IMG/VR virus record: IMGVR_UViG_3300005973_000002
Source of the DNA: a virus
Lineage: Duplodnaviria; Caudoviricetes
Reading direction: 5' to 3' (one strand)
Length of the DNA stretch: 64,000 bases
The translations under genes and the position numbers were made by a program. Below the pieces are notes generated by a model. It saw only the letters and a list, made by a program, of their open reading frames with translations. It was not told the origin of the DNA and searched no databases. Positions 4,985 through 19,570 of this stretch are shown piece by piece. Each line of letters begins with the position of its first letter. The first letter of the stretch is position 1.

Positions 4985-5060
4985 TGGTGCCCAGGAAGGG
5001 ATTCGAACCCTCACTGTGCCGGTTCTGAGCCGACTGCCTCTGCCATTGGGCTACCTGGGC
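4985..5060 (-). tRNA. trnL: tRNA-Leu(CAG), 76 nt, short variable loop, encoded CCA
   Basis: Acceptor GCCCAGG/CCTGGGC; anticodon stem GTCGG/CCGGC with loop CTCAGAA; 5-nt variable loop; T-loop TTCGAAT; A73; CCA. Confidence 0.9.
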
Positions 5061-6432: not shown

Positions 6433-6523
6433 TGGCGGAAGGCAGAGGACTTGAACCCCAACGGTTGTTGACCGTCCATCCGCTTTCGAGACGGCGGCGA
6501 TCACCCGGATCGCTTTACCTTCC
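6433..6523 (-). tRNA. trnS: tRNA-Ser(CGA), long variable arm, encoded CCA
   Basis: Acceptor GGAAGGT/GCCTTCC; loop CTCGAAA; long variable arm; T-loop TTCAAGT; G73; CCA. Confidence 0.9.
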
Positions 6524-7029: not shown

Positions 7030-8205
7030 TCACTTTACAAGTTTTGTAAACAGCTCAGTCTCACGTCGTTCAATTTCTTGTCCGATTTCTCGTCCCTTTA
7101 AACCCTGAGCCATCAACTCTTGTCCACTCACGGATGGTTCGTATTTAATAAATGCATCTACCAAATTCATGTCCGGCTCACCACTAAGTTGAGCAAATTC
7201 CTTCAAGTCCTCAGGAGAAAGTCGTGTCGGCTTCCACAATTTTTTCAAATGATAAGCATTCTCGGGAGAAAGGTTTTGAAAAAGATTAAGAAAAGCAATT
7301 TGCCTAGTTTCAACTACACTGTATTTTAAGTTGTTTAACTTTTGAGACAAAACTTTAGGATTGTTATCTCGTGTAAGAAGAGCAAGTTGCACTGGGATGT
7401 TCTTTGTTTCTTCATACCACGTGTTTAGCTTTAACCCAGGTAAAATCTTTTCCCATAAATTGAAAGAGTCATAAAGACGATGTAAGGCCCTGACGGATTG
7501 GGCACTCTTAATGCTTTTCAAGAATTCATCTCTGATTCTTTCAGGCGACACACCCTCTAAGGAATTATTTGCCCTAATGGCGTCTTCGGTCGGTTTATCA
7601 AGCCCAGCACCCATACGAGCTGCAAATCTAATAGCTCGCAAAATTCTCAGTCTGTCCTCATCAAATCTTTCTGAGGGATCTCCAACAGCTCTAACCACAC
7701 CTTTTTCTAGATCTTCAAGACCGCCTACCAAGTCCACAACTTCTTGACTGTCGATGTCATAAAAAAGTGCGTTAATTGTAAGATCACGACGTTTCACATC
7801 ATTTTCAATAGTAGTAAACTCAACTGCATCGGGTCGTCGACCCACCAAAGACTTAAATTCTCGATATTCTTCTGGAAAAAGTTGTGCGGCTTTATTTTTC
7901 CAATTAGCCGACTCTGTCAACTTGTTTGTGGTTGTTGGGGTAAATGTGATAAAGATACCATCTGTAGGATCACCCTCCACGACACTGATACTATCAGTGC
8001 TGTACTCATCGAAAATTTTATAGTGTTCATCCCACCAATCTTCTTCGGGTGTACCTGCTTCATATCGACATCCGAGTGTATGAGTTTCAATGAACCAGCC
8101 ATTTACAATAACAGTATCACCACAAGTTCTTGCAGTCTTCAATTTAGCCAGAAGGTCATTTCCAGCCTTTTGAACGGTTGCAGGTAAATCTTCATACTTG
8201 GTCAT
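7030..8205 (-). CDS. cca: CCA-adding enzyme (class II tRNA nucleotidyltransferase), C-terminal piece with a 121-aa foreign leader
   Basis: GRRPDAVEF, DVKRRDLTINA (motif B), DLVGG, RAVGDPSERFDEDRLRILRAIRF (motif D), SPERIRDE. SD GGAG 8 nt before ATG 8205. Confidence 0.9.
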   Translation of the reverse strand: MTKYEDLPATVQKAGNDLLAKLKTARTCGDTVIVNGWFIETHTLGCRYEAGTPEEDWWDEHYKIFDEYSTDSISVVEGDPTDGIFITFTPTTTNKLTESANWKNKAAQLFPEEYREFKSLVGRRPDAVEFTTIENDVKRRDLTINALFYDIDSQEVVDLVGGLEDLEKGVVRAVGDPSERFDEDRLRILRAIRFAARMGAGLDKPTEDAIRANNSLEGVSPERIRDEFLKSIKSAQSVRALHRLYDSFNLWEKILPGLKLNTWYEETKNIPVQLALLTRDNNPKVLSQKLNNLKYSVVETRQIAFLNLFQNLSPENAYHLKKLWKPTRLSPEDLKEFAQLSGEPDMNLVDAFIKYEPSVSGQELMAQGLKGREIGQEIERRETELFTKLVK

Positions 8206-8926
8206 CAACATATCTCCACATAAAACCACCAGCTTGTTTCCTGTACTTTTTGTTTCTGGCAGCACAGCTAATGTTTCTAATTCCCAAGTCTTTTTGAGCT
8301 TTATCAACACTTTCCCAAATTTGGATCATTTCACCGTCTAAAGTCATTTGCATTACTTTTTTCTTGTTCCAAGCTGATTTTCCTCTACGAGCTTTAGAAA
8401 TCTTCTGCTTTTGTGCTTCTGTACAAGGTTTTCCAAGTCTTCTGGTGTTACCTATAAGTGACTTGGAAATATTTTTCTTGTGTACAGAAGTTAATTTTCG
8501 ACCCTTATGCTGTCTAGCAACTTGTGCTATTTTTTGCTTCGCCTTCTCACTGTGCTTATAACCGTGAGATCCAACCTCTCCTCCAGAAGTGACATTTGTT
8601 AAATCACAACCTTTGTCTTTGAAATATTGAATCCAATACCGCTCTCGTTCTGTCAACAAACTTTCTTCACATTTTTCAATGGCAATTATCCTCAGTTTGG
8701 AGAGCAATCCTTTTCTCTCCAATAATCGCAACCAATTATTCTTATGCGAGTTATTCTTGTTCCTTCGATGCTTATGCTTAGAGAGTCTAACGTTTAGCTT
8801 TGATACAGTTTTACCAACATATCTGACCTCATTAGTCATTGGGCATACGAGCGAGTAGACGCAGCCTTTTCTTCCAGTTTTCTGGCTGTTTTTCTTGGAT
8901 GAATTTAACGAAACTTTCATAATCAT
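8192..8926 (-). mobile_element. GIY-YIG homing endonuclease with NUMOD3/NUMOD1-type DNA-binding modules
   Basis: GCVYSLVCP...YVGKT, RLSKH, ERERYWI, CDLTN, GGE; HSEKAKQKI repeats; C-terminal KKVMQMTLDGE...AGGFMWRY. Confidence 0.9.
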
Positions 8927-9779
8927 CTTTTAAATATGAATCTTCACGGAAAGTTGCTATTTCATATTCATTGCCCTCAGGGGTTATAACATTGATAACA
9001 CCAAATGCCTTCCCAACTTCCATTGTTTTGTACTCTGGGAATTTCCTGATTATTTCAAGAATGCGATTAGGATTAGCATCTGTGGCCACATCATAATCCT
9101 TAGGTTCTTTACCCAGCAATGCATCCCGTACTGCTCCACCTACAACGTAAAGTTGATGTCCAGCTTTTGAAAAGATTTGTGATAATCTTTGAATGTCAGC
9201 AGGTATTTTCATATTAAAGGGCTTTCGCACTGATTCAACTAAGAAATTGAAATTTTCATTTAAAATTTCATCAATAAGCCATTTAACGCTTTCGTTTTTA
9301 GCCTCAGTTTCTTGGTTGTCTTTTTTTGGCACCTGATCCAGTGGCGAAGGTTGCTTTTTCTGCAAATATTTTTTAAACTTGCGCTCCCGTTTTTTGCGAG
9401 GTACAGTGTAATGTTTTTTTAACAACTGATCAATGGTAGATTGGTACCAGCGCTTTGCCTGTCCAGCAAGTTTGTTGTCATCTACAAAATGATCAATATA
9501 AAGACGCACTCCGTGCGTATCACCGGATTGACGTGGGTCCATATCTGGATCCATTTTAAGCAAGCCTGACAACTGGTCGAGTTTCTTGGTTGGAGAGTAT
9601 CCTCCCCTGACTGATGACACGGAAAACTTAGCAAGTTTAGTCAAATCATCATGAATTTCGGGAAAATTTTTCTTCATGTGATTAACGTAATCTTGCGATA
9701 GCTCCTCACGGTGTTCGAGCATGACTTCATCAAGCACTTCCTCAATCAAATATACAAGGTCTTTCTTTTTCATGGACAT
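8832..9779 (-). CDS. cca: CCA-adding enzyme, N-terminal piece with a roughly 180-aa N-terminal extension
   Basis: LYVVGGAVRDALLG..PKDYDVAT (motif A), VGKAFGV, EIATFREDSYLKD, then a 30-aa unrelated tail and stop. Confidence 0.9.
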   Translation of the reverse strand: MSMKKKDLVYLIEEVLDEVMLEHREELSQDYVNHMKKNFPEIHDDLTKLAKFSVSSVRGGYSPTKKLDQLSGLLKMDPDMDPRQSGDTHGVRLYIDHFVDDNKLAGQAKRWYQSTIDQLLKKHYTVPRKKRERKFKKYLQKKQPSPLDQVPKKDNQETEAKNESVKWLIDEILNENFNFLVESVRKPFNMKIPADIQRLSQIFSKAGHQLYVVGGAVRDALLGKEPKDYDVATDANPNRILEIIRKFPEYKTMEVGKAFGVINVITPEGNEYEIATFREDSYLKDDYESFVKFIQEKQPENWKKRLRLLARMPND

Positions 9780-15851: not shown

Positions 15852-16304
15852 ATGACAGAACGTAAAGTTGTAATCATGCGTGGTCCATCCGGTTCAGGAA
15901 AGTCCACCTACATCAAATCTCATCTGCCCAATGCATATGTGTGCTCGGCAGATCACTTTTTCTATGATGACGAGGGCAATTACTCGTTTGATCCGAGTAA
16001 GCTCGGTGCAGCACACGAGACATGCAAGCGCAAGTTCAAAAAGGCTCTACAACAAGGTAAGTCGCTCGTCGTCGTCGACAATACCAACACGAAGATGTGG
16101 GAAATGAAGCCCTACATCATGGCAGCCAAGAGCGCAGGATACGAAATCGAATTCGTGAGGCTTAATACGCCCGCTGATGTGGCTGCATCCCGAAACGTTC
16201 ATGGTGTACCGCTTGACGCTGTAAAGCGTATGGCTGACCGAATGCAAGATCTTCCACCCGACCTAGCACGCAAGGAAAAGGTTGTGGAAGGTGTCAGTCA
16301 ATAA
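15852..16304 (+). CDS. P-loop kinase (AAA_33 / polynucleotide kinase-like)
   Basis: MRGPSGSGKST, SADHFF, VVVDNTN, RNVHGVP; SD AGGAG. Confidence 0.9.
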   Translation: MTERKVVIMRGPSGSGKSTYIKSHLPNAYVCSADHFFYDDEGNYSFDPSKLGAAHETCKRKFKKALQQGKSLVVVDNTNTKMWEMKPYIMAAKSAGYEIEFVRLNTPADVAASRNVHGVPLDAVKRMADRMQDLPPDLARKEKVVEGVSQ

Positions 16305-17469: not shown

Positions 17470-17744
17470 ATGCTTCCCTTTCAGTAGTAAAACCACATAT
17501 TGGAAAATTATTTAGAGCAAACACTAAATTAAGTTCGATATTTGCTCATACGACATCTGTTGTAAAGACAGTGCCTAAAGATGCTGTGTTGTTGTTGTAC
17601 AGTGTTGAAGACCTTGGAGTTGTAACATATGAATTGCCCAACCAAATAGTTTGTCATTTTATTTACCAAGACTGTCGCTTTGTTGAAGTATTTAAACATA
17701 GTGGTGACTTATTTGACAAAATGTGCCTTATCAACAATGACTAA
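17466..17744 (+). CDS. Hypothetical protein
   Basis: 92 aa; stop and start overlap with the upstream gene. Confidence 0.6.
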   Translation: MNASLSVVKPHIGKLFRANTKLSSIFAHTTSVVKTVPKDAVLLLYSVEDLGVVTYELPNQIVCHFIYQDCRFVEVFKHSGDLFDKMCLINND

Positions 17745-17795
17745 AGCTATTGAGGTTTACAAAAAAACCAAGCTCTATATAATAAGAAGATGTTC

Positions 17796-17867
17796 GGGCG
17801 ATTAACTCAGTGGAAGAGTGGCTGCTTTACACGCAGTAGGTCGGCGGTTCGAATCCGTCATCGCCCA
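17796..17867 (+). tRNA. trnV: tRNA-Val(TAC), no encoded CCA
   Basis: Acceptor GGGCGAT/ATCGCCC; loop TTTACAC; T-loop TTCGAAT; A73 followed by CAA. Confidence 0.95.
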
Positions 17868-17871
17868 CAAA

Positions 17872-17998
17872 GCAATGCTCGCCAGAGCCCCGAGAATAAA
17901 CTCGATTCCTTAAAAATTAAGGTGTGATTGACCTAATCAATTTAGCTATGGAGTCCCTGTGCTCCTATTCGCAGGGTGGTCGGGGCGAGCACTATTGT
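17872..17998 (+). ncRNA. Candidate structured ncRNA of unknown class
   Basis: Closing helices TGCTCG/CGAGCA and CCGA/TCGG; inner hairpins CCTTAA/TTAAGG, TGATTG/TAATCA and CCCTGTG/CGCAGGG; GATTCC/GGAGTC pairing. Confidence 0.55.
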
Positions 17999-18000
17999 GC

Positions 18001-18032
18001 AAAAAAAGACGGGCTTGATCCCGTCTTTTTTT
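18001..18032 (+). terminator. Intrinsic terminator, possibly bidirectional
   Basis: AAAAAAAGACGGG-CTTGAT-CCCGTCTTTTTTT. Confidence 0.9.
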
Positions 18033-18042
18033 ATGGAGTGAT

Positions 18043-18279
18043 ATGAGTTGGCCAAATGAATTATCGAAAATTTCGGGACTGCAATCTTCTCTTTTTAGAA
18101 GACTTGAGGTTAGAAGAAGGTATATCAAATTTCTCAATTCTGGTATTGTTCATATTCATGCTAATGATATCGCAGAGAAAAAACGTTGGAGTCAAAATGT
18201 GTATTTACCTTCTTTTGTCATAGCACCCACTAAACCAGTCGAATATATTAAAATGAACTTCCATCTCTTCAACAAATAA
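18043..18279 (+). CDS. Hypothetical protein
   Basis: 78 aa; SD GGAG. Confidence 0.55.
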   Translation: MSWPNELSKISGLQSSLFRRLEVRRRYIKFLNSGIVHIHANDIAEKKRWSQNVYLPSFVIAPTKPVEYIKMNFHLFNK

Positions 18280-18661: not shown

Positions 18662-19570
18662 ATGATTGCACCTAAAGTTTTCTATATTCCTCAAAAAGTT
18701 GATTATGTAGTTGTCAGTGACATGTTTGCTGAAGATTACCCAGGCGGCGCCGAGTTAACGCTCGAAGCTCTAATGTCAAAAGCCCCAGGCCAAGTATATA
18801 AGCTACATTCACAGCTTGTTACAACTGAATTGATTGAGAATCACAAGGAGAAAGTGTGGATTATCGGAAACTTTTCCCAAATGTCAAAAACCAGTCTAAT
18901 AGAATTGGTAGCATCGGGGGTAAAGTTTTTTGTAATTGAGTGTGATTACAAATATTGCAAACACCGCTCTTCACACCTTCACAAGCTTCAGGAAAAACAA
19001 GAATGTAACTGTCATACTCAGCAGCACGGCATATTTGTTCGTGCTCTTTATCAGAGGGCACAAAAAGTATTCTTCATGTCCGAAGCGCAAATGAACGAGT
19101 ATGTCCATTTGTTCCCACAAGCAAAGCCAAACAATTTTATTGTTCAAAGTTCCACATTTAAAGACGAGACACTTGACAAATTAAAAGAATTGCGTGAGTT
19201 GAGAAAAACTAGAAAACCTAACGAGCGCTGGGCAATTATGAGCGGCGGTTCTTGGATTAAAGCCGAAAGAGCTACTATAGAGTGGTGTGAAAGCAAAGGA
19301 TTAGAGTATGATTTAATTGGCGGCCTCACACATTCAAGTTTTTTAGAAAAGCTTTCTACGATGAAAGGACTGGTATTTAGACCAGCAGGATATGATACAT
19401 GTCCACGACTCGTTATTGAAGCAAAGCTTCTAGGACTTGAGCTTGAACTGAATGATAATGTTCAACATAAAGACGAGAGTTGGTTTAGTGGTTCTATCAA
19501 TTGCACCGAAAAATACCTCAAGGACCGAACCAAATTCTTTTGGGATAAAGTAAATGAAAAAGATATCTAA
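18662..19570 (+). CDS. Glycosyltransferase-like protein (GT-B type)
   Basis: GGAELT N-terminal motif; VFFMSEAQ; DTCPRLVIEAKLLG (GT4-like E-x7-E variant). Confidence 0.65.
   Translation: MIAPKVFYIPQKVDYVVVSDMFAEDYPGGAELTLEALMSKAPGQVYKLHSQLVTTELIENHKEKVWIIGNFSQMSKTSLIELVASGVKFFVIECDYKYCKHRSSHLHKLQEKQECNCHTQQHGIFVRALYQRAQKVFFMSEAQMNEYVHLFPQAKPNNFIVQSSTFKDETLDKLKELRELRKTRKPNERWAIMSGGSWIKAERATIEWCESKGLEYDLIGGLTHSSFLEKLSTMKGLVFRPAGYDTCPRLVIEAKLLGLELELNDNVQHKDESWFSGSINCTEKYLKDRTKFFWDKVNEKDI

What the first reader, a model, noticed from the sequence alone, without database searches (positions are those of the whole stretch)
17872..17998. Unexplained multibranch RNA between tRNA-Val and a strong terminator
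Seen: about 125 nt, GC-richer than its surroundings, starting 4 nt after the tRNA and ending at the terminator. Its ends pair, it encloses three or four hairpins, and GGAG could alternatively pair with loop CTCC. It has no plausible ORF. I cannot match it to tmRNA, 6S, SRP or a known ribozyme. Inference: a co-transcribed novel ncRNA, such as a tRNA-processing element or a decoy.
Basis: partly seen in the sequence, partly recalled or inferred. Interest (0 to 1): 0.6.

Follow-up and report, generated by a model that had tools for sequence, protein, structure and literature searches.

The report
Pseudoknotted small RNA behind phage tRNA-Val
The stretch after tRNA-Val in this giant salt-lake phage is a real non-coding RNA, but only its last 50 bases (a small knot-like fold, an unchanging G-rich strand and a hairpin before the terminator) are conserved in relatives, and its job is unknown.

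Summary
A segment of 47-49% GC in a roughly 33% GC background runs from tRNA-Val(UAC) to a strong intrinsic terminator. It folds better than shuffles (z -3.0; -5.05 with the terminator), has no conserved ORF and matches no Rfam family.

Comparison with three diverged relatives changes the picture. The closing stem and most inner hairpins exist only in this phage. What is conserved is window 17950-18000:
- an H-type pseudoknot, S1 GGAG/CUCC and S2 CCCUGUG/CGCAGGG, with 11 pairs all kept and three pairs changed on both sides;
- an invariant linker, UGGUCGGGG;
- a 4-bp hairpin, followed by an A-rich spacer of 8-10 nt and the terminator.

Two relatives carry this core with no tRNA nearby, at the end of a protein operon, so it is not a tRNA-processing device. 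In the window the closing stem overlaps the conserved hairpin.

My best reading (about 0.4) is a stable small RNA. Here it would be released as the tRNA's 3' trailer, like E. coli 3'ETS-leuZ or T4 RNAC/RNAD, and would present the linker to an RNA or protein partner. I obtained no expression data, and only four lineages are known.

The scan had noted this same stretch once before (e1-5336821), but not on other DNA.

The parts
17756..17783 (+). Sigma-70-like promoter, TTTACA-16 nt-TATAAT, about 12 nt upstream of the tRNA
   Evidence: 11 of 12 matches. L001 has TTCAAA-18-TATACT at the same place. This is a consensus match only.
17796..17868 (+). tRNA-Val(UAC). Discriminator A is at 17867. Only the first C of CCA is encoded (ACA AAG follows).
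   Evidence: ARAGORN; Rfam RF00005, 68.5 bits; sequence.
17869..17949 (+). Variable 5' domain of the trailer. It holds the 5' strand of the window-specific closing stem (17876-17883, 17890-17893), hairpin CGAG/CUCG (17891-17904) and hairpin CCUUAA/UUAAGG (17908-17922). It aligns to L001 in sequence but these helices are not conserved, and it is absent from L003 and L094.
   Evidence: fold; alignment with L001; L003, L094.
17927..17941 (+). Hairpin AUUGA-CCUAA-UCAAU. It is the only 5'-domain helix shared with L001 (GUUGA-CCUAA-UCAAC, A-U to G-C).
   Evidence: It has no other copy in the window or in other loci.
17950..17976 (+). H-type pseudoknot. S1 is GGAG (17950-53) with CUCC (17962-65). L1 is U17954. 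S2 is CCCUGUG (17955-61) with CGCAGGG (17970-76). L3 is UAUU (17966-69).
   Evidence: 11 pairs, 44 of 44 cells paired, 3 pairs changed on both sides, and 2 of 500 shuffles reach the score. S2 alone is -7.8 to -10.8 kcal/mol. The U17960-G17971 wobble points to the + strand.
17977..17988 (+). Linker UGGUCGGGG (17977-85), invariant in all four lineages, followed by YGA. It is flush against S2. It is the candidate binding or seed strand.
   Evidence: invariant columns.
17989..18000 (+). Small conserved hairpin GCAC-UAUU-GUGC. L094 has GCAU...GUGC (C-G to U-G). It overlaps the 3' strand of the window's closing stem.
18001..18032 (+). A-tract, intrinsic terminator stem GACGGG/CCCGUC with a 6-nt loop, and U7. 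The 8-10 nt A-rich spacing from the hairpin is kept in all four lineages, although the terminator stems differ.
   Evidence: One search scores L094's terminator.

Best explanation
The element is the 3' trailer of a stand-alone tRNA-Val transcription unit. It carries a small structured RNA module that is older than its link to the tRNA.

The module (17950-18000 plus the terminator) consists of an H-type pseudoknot, an invariant nine-base G-rich linker (UGGUCGGGG) that starts flush against the 7-bp helix S2, a 4-bp hairpin, an A-rich spacer, and an intrinsic terminator with a U-tail.

Proposed mechanism, all inferred. RNA polymerase transcribes tRNA plus trailer from the promoter at 17756-83 and stops at 18026-32. 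tRNA 3' maturation, which is needed because CCA is not encoded, cuts after 17867/8 and frees a trailer RNA of about 165 nt. In L003 and L094 the same module is instead the 3' end of the ORF113/ORF130-homologue operon. The pseudoknot and the terminator hairpin make the RNA stable and hold the linker in a defined position. The linker then binds a partner in trans: an RNA carrying CCCCGACCA-like sequence, or a protein. The RNA would therefore act as a regulator or a sponge/decoy.

In the window phage, the extra 5' strand (GCUCGCC...CCGA) can mask most of the linker and open the small hairpin. That would be a lineage-specific closed state.
For: Shown:
- The unit has a promoter, tRNA, element and terminator in the window and in L001.
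- The core is conserved in four lineages whose neighbouring glycosyltransferase gene is only 68-78% identical in protein. It is 87% identical over 41 nt, while the flanks cannot be aligned.
- Every variable position inside the pseudoknot is either a loop base or a compensated pair. All 44 cells are paired, three pairs changed on both sides, and 2 of 500 shuffles are as good.
- G-U wobbles occur only on the + strand.
- The frame is not kept open in L001.
- The spacing to the terminator is constant although the terminator stems differ.
- The module occurs without a tRNA in L003 and L094, after homologues of ORF113 and ORF130.
- tRNA-Val lacks an encoded CCA, whereas tRNA-Leu and tRNA-Ser in the window carry it. 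The phage encodes a CCA-adding enzyme.

Precedents:
- E. coli 3'ETS-leuZ is a tRNA trailer that acts as an sRNA sponge (PMC8383071).
Against: - There is no expression or processing data.
- Only four lineages are known, which amount to about three independent compensatory events.
- A nested alternative fold, in which the 5' flank pairs with the linker, is kept almost as well (96% of cells). The linker may therefore not be free.
- No target with at most one mismatch to the linker's complement stands out in the 64-kb window. The rest of the genome and the host could not be searched.
- L003 and L094 show no recognisable promoter in front of the core.
- L093, a relative at 68%, lacks the module altogether, so it is dispensable.
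Confidence: 0.4

Rival explanations
1. It is a cis-acting element tied to the terminator. The pseudoknot, linker and hairpin would tune termination efficiency or read-through into the downstream glycosyltransferase/GMP-reductase-like cluster, or protect the 3' end of the upstream transcript. No trans-acting RNA would be involved.
For: - The module always lies 8-10 nt upstream of an intrinsic terminator.
- It always lies upstream of the ORF302 gene family, with nought to two small ORFs between.
- More distant relatives have just a terminator at this position.
- Two competing folds, pseudoknot and nested hairpin, are both compatible with the data.
Against: - No conserved pairing links the module to either terminator arm. 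The terminator stems differ completely between lineages while the linker is invariant (my own inspection).
- The small conserved hairpin insulates the module from the terminator.
- In the window and L001 the unit has its own promoter and a tRNA, so it is not simply an operon end.
Confidence: 0.22
2. It is a riboswitch-like sensor. The pseudoknot would bind a small ligand and control transcription into the downstream DNA/sugar-modification genes.
For: - It is a compact pseudoknot aptamer-like fold with invariant unpaired bases, followed by a terminator and then biosynthetic-type genes: a GT-B glycosyltransferase fold, an IMPDH/GMP-reductase domain and GT2.
Against: - It matches no Rfam riboswitch class, even at E up to 10.
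- There is no antiterminator or terminator alternative that is conserved.
- In the window and L001 it sits behind a tRNA in a separate unit, with one or two unrelated small ORFs before the cluster.
- It is found in only four lineages, although more than 300 relatives carry the same gene cluster.
Confidence: 0.07
3. It is a dock for tRNA 3' ends. The linker's UGGU, placed flush against helix S2 as UGGN sits against helix A1 of a T-box, would pair with the ACCA-3' end of uncharged A73 tRNAs such as tRNA-Val. The RNA would sense, sequester or chaperone tRNA ends.
For: - In T-boxes UGGN is always immediately adjacent to a helix so that the tRNA end can stack on it (PMC7583486).
- The neighbouring tRNA-Val has discriminator A and needs CCA addition.
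- Linker bases GGGCGA (17983-88) copy the tRNA's own 5' acceptor strand (and incidentally). L003 and L094 have GGGUGA, which could still pair with UCGCCC through a wobble.
- The phage invests heavily in tRNA biology: a CCA-adding enzyme and many tRNA-like RNAs noted by other readers.
Against: - An eight-base match is a weak lead.
- The Rfam T-box model does not match.
- There is no Stem I or specifier, no Stem III purine string and no A1/A2 topology. Here the AGGG strand pairs upstream, not downstream.
- The UGGU is invariant, so co-variation with a discriminator base cannot be tested.
- Two of the four lineages have no tRNA nearby.
Confidence: 0.06
4. It is a self-cleaving ribozyme or another tRNA 3'-processing device, like the theta (HDV-like) ribozymes that sit directly after phage tRNAs.
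For: - It starts right after a tRNA that lacks CCA, and it contains a pseudoknot. Theta ribozymes occupy exactly this position in gut phages (PMC10879173).
Against: - No P1/P3 nested double-pseudoknot arrangement within -8 to +11 nt of the tRNA end (theta ribozymes lie within +/-5 nt) is shared between the window and L001.
- There is no hammerhead core.
- No Rfam ribozyme family matches.
- The conserved core lies 82 nt (window) or 178 nt (L001) from the tRNA end, and it exists without a tRNA in L003 and L094.
Confidence: 0.03
5. It is a decayed tRNA or tRNA-like gene, or has no function at all: a GC-rich remnant kept by shared ancestry.
For: - The window's 7-8 bp terminal stem followed by A resembles an acceptor stem.
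- Other readers report many odd tRNA-like RNAs in this genome.
- Only close relatives share it.
Against: - ARAGORN and the Rfam tRNA model do not match.
- There is no T-arm or D-arm.
- The acceptor-like stem is not conserved.
- The core is far better conserved than its flanks, and its changes are compensatory.
Confidence: 0.1

Closest known systems
E. coli 3'ETS-leuZ, the 3' external transcribed spacer of the glyW-cysT-leuZ pre-tRNA (Lalaouna et al. 2015, as summarised in PMC8383071)
   Same: An RNA lying between the last tRNA of a transcript and its intrinsic terminator. It is released by tRNA maturation and acts in trans.
   Different: There is no sequence or structural similarity. 3'ETS-leuZ has no pseudoknot, and its partners (RyhB, RybB) are known. 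Here release, stability and partners are all inferred, and the conserved core also occurs without a tRNA.
[quoted passage not shown]
   Same: Phage-encoded small structured RNAs co-transcribed with tRNA genes, with unknown function.
   Different: No detectable similarity: blastn of the region against 50,697 phage records hit only tRNAs. The window's RNA follows a single tRNA in its own unit rather than lying inside a tRNA cluster.
T-box riboswitch discriminator (helix A1, UGGN bulge, helix A2; PMC7583486)
   Same: The eight bases AGGGUGGU, with UGGU starting immediately after a helix and followed by three more unpaired bases. A terminator lies downstream.
   Different: There is no Stem I, specifier, Stem II or Stem III. 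The AGGG strand pairs with upstream rather than downstream sequence. No terminator/antiterminator competition is seen, and the Rfam T-box model gives no match. This is a resemblance only.
T2/T4 gene 32 mRNA pseudoknot (PMC3014915; Holland et al. 1999, cited there)
   Same: A compact phage H-type pseudoknot with two stacked stems. From my own recollection of the T2 structure, a single-nucleotide loop 1 crosses a 7-bp stem 2, as here.
   Different: The gene 32 pseudoknot sits at the 5' end of an mRNA leader. It nucleates gp32 binding on an A+U-rich tract over the ribosome-binding site. Here the knot is followed by a G-rich linker, a hairpin and a terminator, with no adjacent start codon.
Theta (minimal HDV-like) ribozymes next to phage tRNAs (PMC10879173)
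   Same: A structured, pseudoknotted RNA immediately downstream of a phage tRNA gene.
   Different: Theta ribozymes lie within 5 nt of the tRNA end and have the P1/P1.1/P2/P3 nested double pseudoknot with a catalytic C. None of this is present.

Membership tests
Any Rfam 15 family (4227 models) | A covariance-model score at or near the family's gathering threshold | tested here: not met
   Window at gathering thresholds: only the tRNAs. Window 17600-18200 at E up to 10: only terminator-driven chance hits of 27 bits or less. L001, L003 and L094 at E up to 1: only the tRNA plus terminator noise.
tRNA / tmRNA | Cloverleaf with D, anticodon and T arms, or a tmRNA tag and tRNA-like domain | tested here: not met
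   ARAGORN finds only tRNA-Val, tRNA-Leu and tRNA-Ser in the window and none in L003 or L094. The Rfam tRNA model does not hit 17869-18000.
T-box riboswitch | Stem I with a specifier loop, and a discriminator (Stem III, helix A1, 7-nt UGGNACC bulge, helix A2) that competes with a terminator | tested here: not met
   RF00230 gives no match at E up to 10. Only the octamer AGGGUGGU is shared. Topology differs, because AGGG pairs upstream, and there is no conserved terminator competition (with my own inspection).
HDV-like / theta ribozyme | P1 starting within about 5 nt of the tRNA end, a 3-bp P3 directly before the P1 3' strand, and P1.1/P2 with a catalytic C | tested here: not met
   A script scan gave only window-specific P1 candidates built on the non-conserved closing stem, 100 nt apart, and none shared with L001. 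No Rfam HDV-family hit.
Hammerhead, twister, pistol and hatchet ribozymes | Conserved catalytic cores (for example CUGANGA...GAAA) | tested here: not met
   No CUGANGA in any of the four sequences and no Rfam hit.
YrlA / Y RNA | A long terminal stem with a Ro-binding site, a tRNA-like T-arm/D-arm module, and usually a neighbouring rsr (Ro) gene | tested here: not met
   No Rfam Y-RNA/YrlA match. The terminal stem is not conserved. No TROVE/Ro domain was found among the neighbouring ORFs scanned. Only part of the 461-kb genome was visible.
tRNA 3' external-transcribed-spacer sRNA (3'ETS-leuZ type) | It lies between a tRNA and the transcript's terminator | tested here: met
   Window 17869-18032 and L001 1267-1541. 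This does not hold for L003 or L094, which have no tRNA.
tRNA 3' external-transcribed-spacer sRNA (3'ETS-leuZ type) | It is released as a stable RNA and base-pairs with other RNAs in trans | not testable with these tools
No whole genome or host genome is held.
Classical H-type pseudoknot | Two helices in which the loop of one forms the strand of the other, both supported by covariation, with loop lengths able to span the grooves | tested here: met
   S1 has 4 bp and S2 has 7 bp. All 44 cells are paired, with double changes at one S1 pair and two S2 pairs. L1 is 1 nt across the 7-bp S2 and L3 is 4 nt across the 4-bp S1, which is sterically standard (established pseudoknot geometry). Caveat: there are only four sequences, and a nested alternative is not excluded.

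The most novel reading that the evidence does not exclude
The invariant AGGG|UGGU, flush against a pseudoknot helix, is a free-standing T-box-like dock for the ACCA-3' end of uncharged tRNAs. A giant phage would then carry a small trans-acting RNA that reads or sequesters tRNA 3' ends. This would be a tRNA-sensing principle so far known only from cis-acting leaders in bacteria.
Probability: 0.06. Interest if true: 0.85.

Novelty: new variant of a known kind. Interest (0 to 1): 0.38.

Why it matters
Giant phages carry large tRNA sets and tRNA-repair genes, yet almost nothing is known about the small RNAs that travel with them. T4's RNAC and RNAD are still unexplained after decades.

This locus gives a compact, well-bounded example: a 51-nt pseudoknot module with an invariant exposed strand. 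It appears both as a tRNA trailer and as an operon 3' end, and it is small enough for direct biochemical tests.

If the linker binds tRNA ends or a host factor, it would show how a phage uses a tRNA gene as a processing handle to deliver a regulatory RNA. If not, it is simply one more uncatalogued phage RNA motif with a narrow distribution.

Tried and rejected
**Searches for more homologues**
- Exact and degenerate pattern scans of IMG/VR gave no hits.
- A scan of JGI metagenome contigs gave 54 hits, all GC-rich coding chance matches without the helices. That collection did not return the JGI contigs that do hold the exact motif (L012, L013). Absence there therefore says little.
- Two scans of GTDB genomes gave 0 hits and then 93 hits. 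All 93 were GC-rich chance matches, and none combined S2 with low GC.
- A covariance model of the core found nothing else in 275 kb of related loci.
- It also found nothing in five whole IMG/VR records of more distant relatives.
- A protein-guided search of IMG/VR with ORF302 reached only relatives at 64% identity or less, and these lack the element.
Contigs for P0003, P0004, P0007, P0010 and P0017 were not fetched.

**Searches in known collections**
- blastn against 50,697 phage records found only tRNA matches.

**Searches that could not be run**
- No whole genome is held for the window, and the 461-kb ENA record is not searchable.

**Readings rejected**
- HDV-like/theta ribozyme and hammerhead.
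- A small ORF: the frames are not conserved.
- Terminator/antiterminator pairing with the linker: partial complementarity appears in the window, L001 and L094 but not in L003, and I judged it to be G-rich chance.
- A functional link to ORF302: it folds as a GT-B glycosyltransferase, not an RNA-binding protein.
- Other copies of the linker, its complement, or the CCUAA hairpin in the window.

Full report
**Context.** The window belongs to a very large phage.
- It encodes a T4-type large terminase, a DnaE split by an intein, an intein-bearing ribonucleotide reductase and a CCA-adding enzyme.
- The same sequence is found on contigs of up to 461 kb from several samples.
- No GenBank phage resembles it at the DNA level apart from the tRNA.
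- No whole genome is held for it.

**The observation.**
- ARAGORN and Rfam place tRNA-Val(UAC) at 17796-17868.
- A near-consensus promoter, TTTACA-16-TATAAT, ends 12 nt before the tRNA.
- A terminator follows: stem GACGGG/CCCGUC, seven U's and an upstream A-tract, ending at 18032.
- Between them lie about 130 nt at 47-49% GC, in a 28-37% GC background.
With the terminator, z is -5.05.
- No Rfam family matches, even at E up to 10.
- The only sizeable frame, 33 codons from 17948, is interrupted by TAA in the closest diverged relative.

**Homologues.**
- Pattern scans of the public collections failed. I therefore worked through the conserved downstream gene ORF302 (18662-19570), which has more than 300 relatives, and fetched their contigs.
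- Five contigs are identical to the window across the element.
- Three diverged lineages carry related RNA:
  - L001 (ORF302 78% identical) has promoter, tRNA-Val, a trailer of about 235 nt and a terminator.
  - L003 (69%) and L094 (68%) have no tRNA. They carry only the last roughly 55 nt plus a terminator, directly after homologues of the window's ORF113 and ORF130.
- Relatives at 65% or less have a bare terminator at this spot. L093 (68%) has nothing there.

**What is conserved.**
- The common core is window 17950-18000.
- Over its first 41 nt the four sequences are 87% identical, while the sequence upstream cannot be aligned between L003 and L094.
- The variable positions are informative:
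  - S2 reads CCCUGUG/CGCAGGG in the window, CCCUGUG/CACAGGG in L001, CCCUAUG/CAUAGGG in L003 and CCCUAUA/UAUAGGG in L094.
  - S1 reads GGAG/CUCC in the window and L001, and UGAG/CUCA in L003 and L094.
- Counted formally, 11 pairs give 44 of 44 paired cells, and three pairs changed on both sides. Only 2 of 500 column shuffles reach the score. Partners slid by one to three columns pair in 27-61% of cells.
- S1's 3' strand lies in the loop of S2, so the two helices form an H-type pseudoknot. L1 is 1 nt across the 7-bp S2 and L3 is 4 nt across the 4-bp S1, which is standard pseudoknot geometry.
- The pseudoknot is followed by UGGUCGGGG, invariant in all four lineages. Then come YGA, a 4-5 bp hairpin (GCAC...GUGC, with C-G to U-G in L094), an A-rich spacer of 8-10 nt, and terminators whose stems differ.
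- G-U wobbles (U17960-G17971 in the window, U-G in L094's hairpin) fit only the + strand.

**What is not conserved.**
- The window and L001 align across the 5' domain, but the helices there are not maintained. The window's closing stem (UGCUCGCC with GGCGAGCA) has no counterpart in L001. In L001 the homologous 5' strand (GCUCACU) pairs locally with AGUGAG.
- Hairpins 17891-17904 and 17908-17922 likewise have no equivalents in L001.
- Only AUUGA-CCUAA-UCAAU (17927-41) is shared, with one A-U to G-C exchange.
- L001 also has an extra insertion of about 95 nt.

**A caveat on the pseudoknot.**
- RNAalifold prefers a nested alternative. In it the bases 5' of S2 (YYY, GA, U) pair with GGG, UC and G of the linker.
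- This alternative is kept in 96% of cells, but it shows only one-sided changes outside S2 and is broken in the window.
- A pyrimidine flank opposite a G-run pairs easily by chance. The G-C to U-A exchange at 17950/17965 favours S1.
- With four sequences, however, I cannot exclude the nested fold or a two-state RNA.

**Known families tested.**
- tRNA, tmRNA and all Rfam families give no match.
- Theta/HDV-like ribozymes sit directly after phage tRNAs (PMC10879173). No P1/P3 arrangement near the tRNA end is shared between the window and L001, and there is no hammerhead core.
- YrlA-type Y RNAs give no model match, and the terminal stem is not conserved.
- For the T-box, the octamer AGGGUGGU equals the start of the T-box core as I recall it. 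In T-boxes UGGN always lies flush against a helix so that the tRNA ACCA end can stack on it (PMC7583486). None of the other defining parts is present, and the Rfam model does not match. I keep this only as the boldest reading that is not excluded.

**Surroundings.**
- ORF302 has no Pfam or PHROG match. It folds with pLDDT 90 as a GT-B glycosyltransferase, and its PDB matches include T4 alpha-glucosyltransferase bound to DNA.
- With the IMPDH/GMP-reductase-like gene, the PD-(D/E)XK nuclease and the GT2 genes that follow, it looks like a DNA or sugar modification cluster.
- None of the small neighbouring ORFs resembles an RNA-binding protein.
- I see no functional tie between these genes and the RNA beyond synteny.

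**Mechanism.**
- Shown: the gene layout, the conserved fold, and independence from the tRNA.
- Inferred: the trailer is freed when the CCA-less tRNA-Val is matured. The pseudoknot and the terminator hairpin make it stable. The invariant linker is the working surface, binding an RNA or a protein. The closest precedents are E. coli 3'ETS-leuZ and T4 RNAC/RNAD.
- I put this reading at about 0.4. The rivals are a cis-acting role at the terminator (0.22), a riboswitch (0.07), a tRNA-end dock (0.06), a ribozyme (0.03), and a remnant or no function (0.1).
- That the core is a genuine selected RNA structure I rate at about 0.8.

**Verdict.** This is a real, uncatalogued small RNA motif of narrow distribution, with four lineages reachable here. 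The interest is moderate. The same stretch was noted once before in this scan, in an overlapping window (e1-5336821), and nowhere else.

Noticed in passing
window 18662-19570: ORF302 has no Pfam or PHROG family. It is predicted with pLDDT 90 to have a GT-B glycosyltransferase fold. Its PDB matches include GlgM, SenB and T4 alpha-glucosyltransferase bound to DNA. It has more than 300 metagenomic relatives, always followed by an IMPDH/GMP-reductase-like gene and a PD-(D/E)XK nuclease. This is probably a DNA or sugar modification cluster.
   Followed up: partly
window 17867-17872, 4985-4990 and 6433-6438: tRNA-Val encodes only the first C of CCA (ACA AAG follows), and the same is true in L001. 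tRNA-Leu(CAG) and tRNA-Ser(CGA) in the same window both carry a full encoded CCA. The phage's tRNAs therefore differ in their need for the CCA-adding enzyme at 7030-9779.
   Followed up: partly
window 17983-17988 and 17796-17801: The invariant linker contains GGGCGA, an exact copy of the first six bases of tRNA-Val's 5' acceptor strand. It could compete for the tRNA's 3' strand UCGCCC in the precursor. L003 and L094 have GGGUGA at this position. This may be coincidence.
   Followed up: no
L001 1345-1440: L001 carries an extra insertion of about 95 nt, GC-rich and hairpin-forming, between the shared CCUAA hairpin and the pseudoknot core. The trailer therefore tolerates large insertions upstream of the core.
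   Followed up: no
window 15852-16304: A 150-aa P-loop kinase (AAA_33) lies 1.5 kb upstream of the tRNA unit. Its best PHROG matches are annotated as ATPase, polynucleotide kinase and RNA ligase. It could belong to RNA repair.
   Followed up: no
window 17947-17954 and 18033-18040: The octamer UAUGGAGU occurs twice: once as the 5' strand of pseudoknot stem S1, and once as the Shine-Dalgarno region of ORF78 just after the terminator. L001 does not share this, so it is probably chance.
   Followed up: no
Metagenome-contig collection: The pattern scan of the JGI metagenome collection did not return the JGI contigs (L012, L013) that contain the exact motif. A negative result from that collection is therefore not evidence of rarity for this phage clade.
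   Followed up: partly
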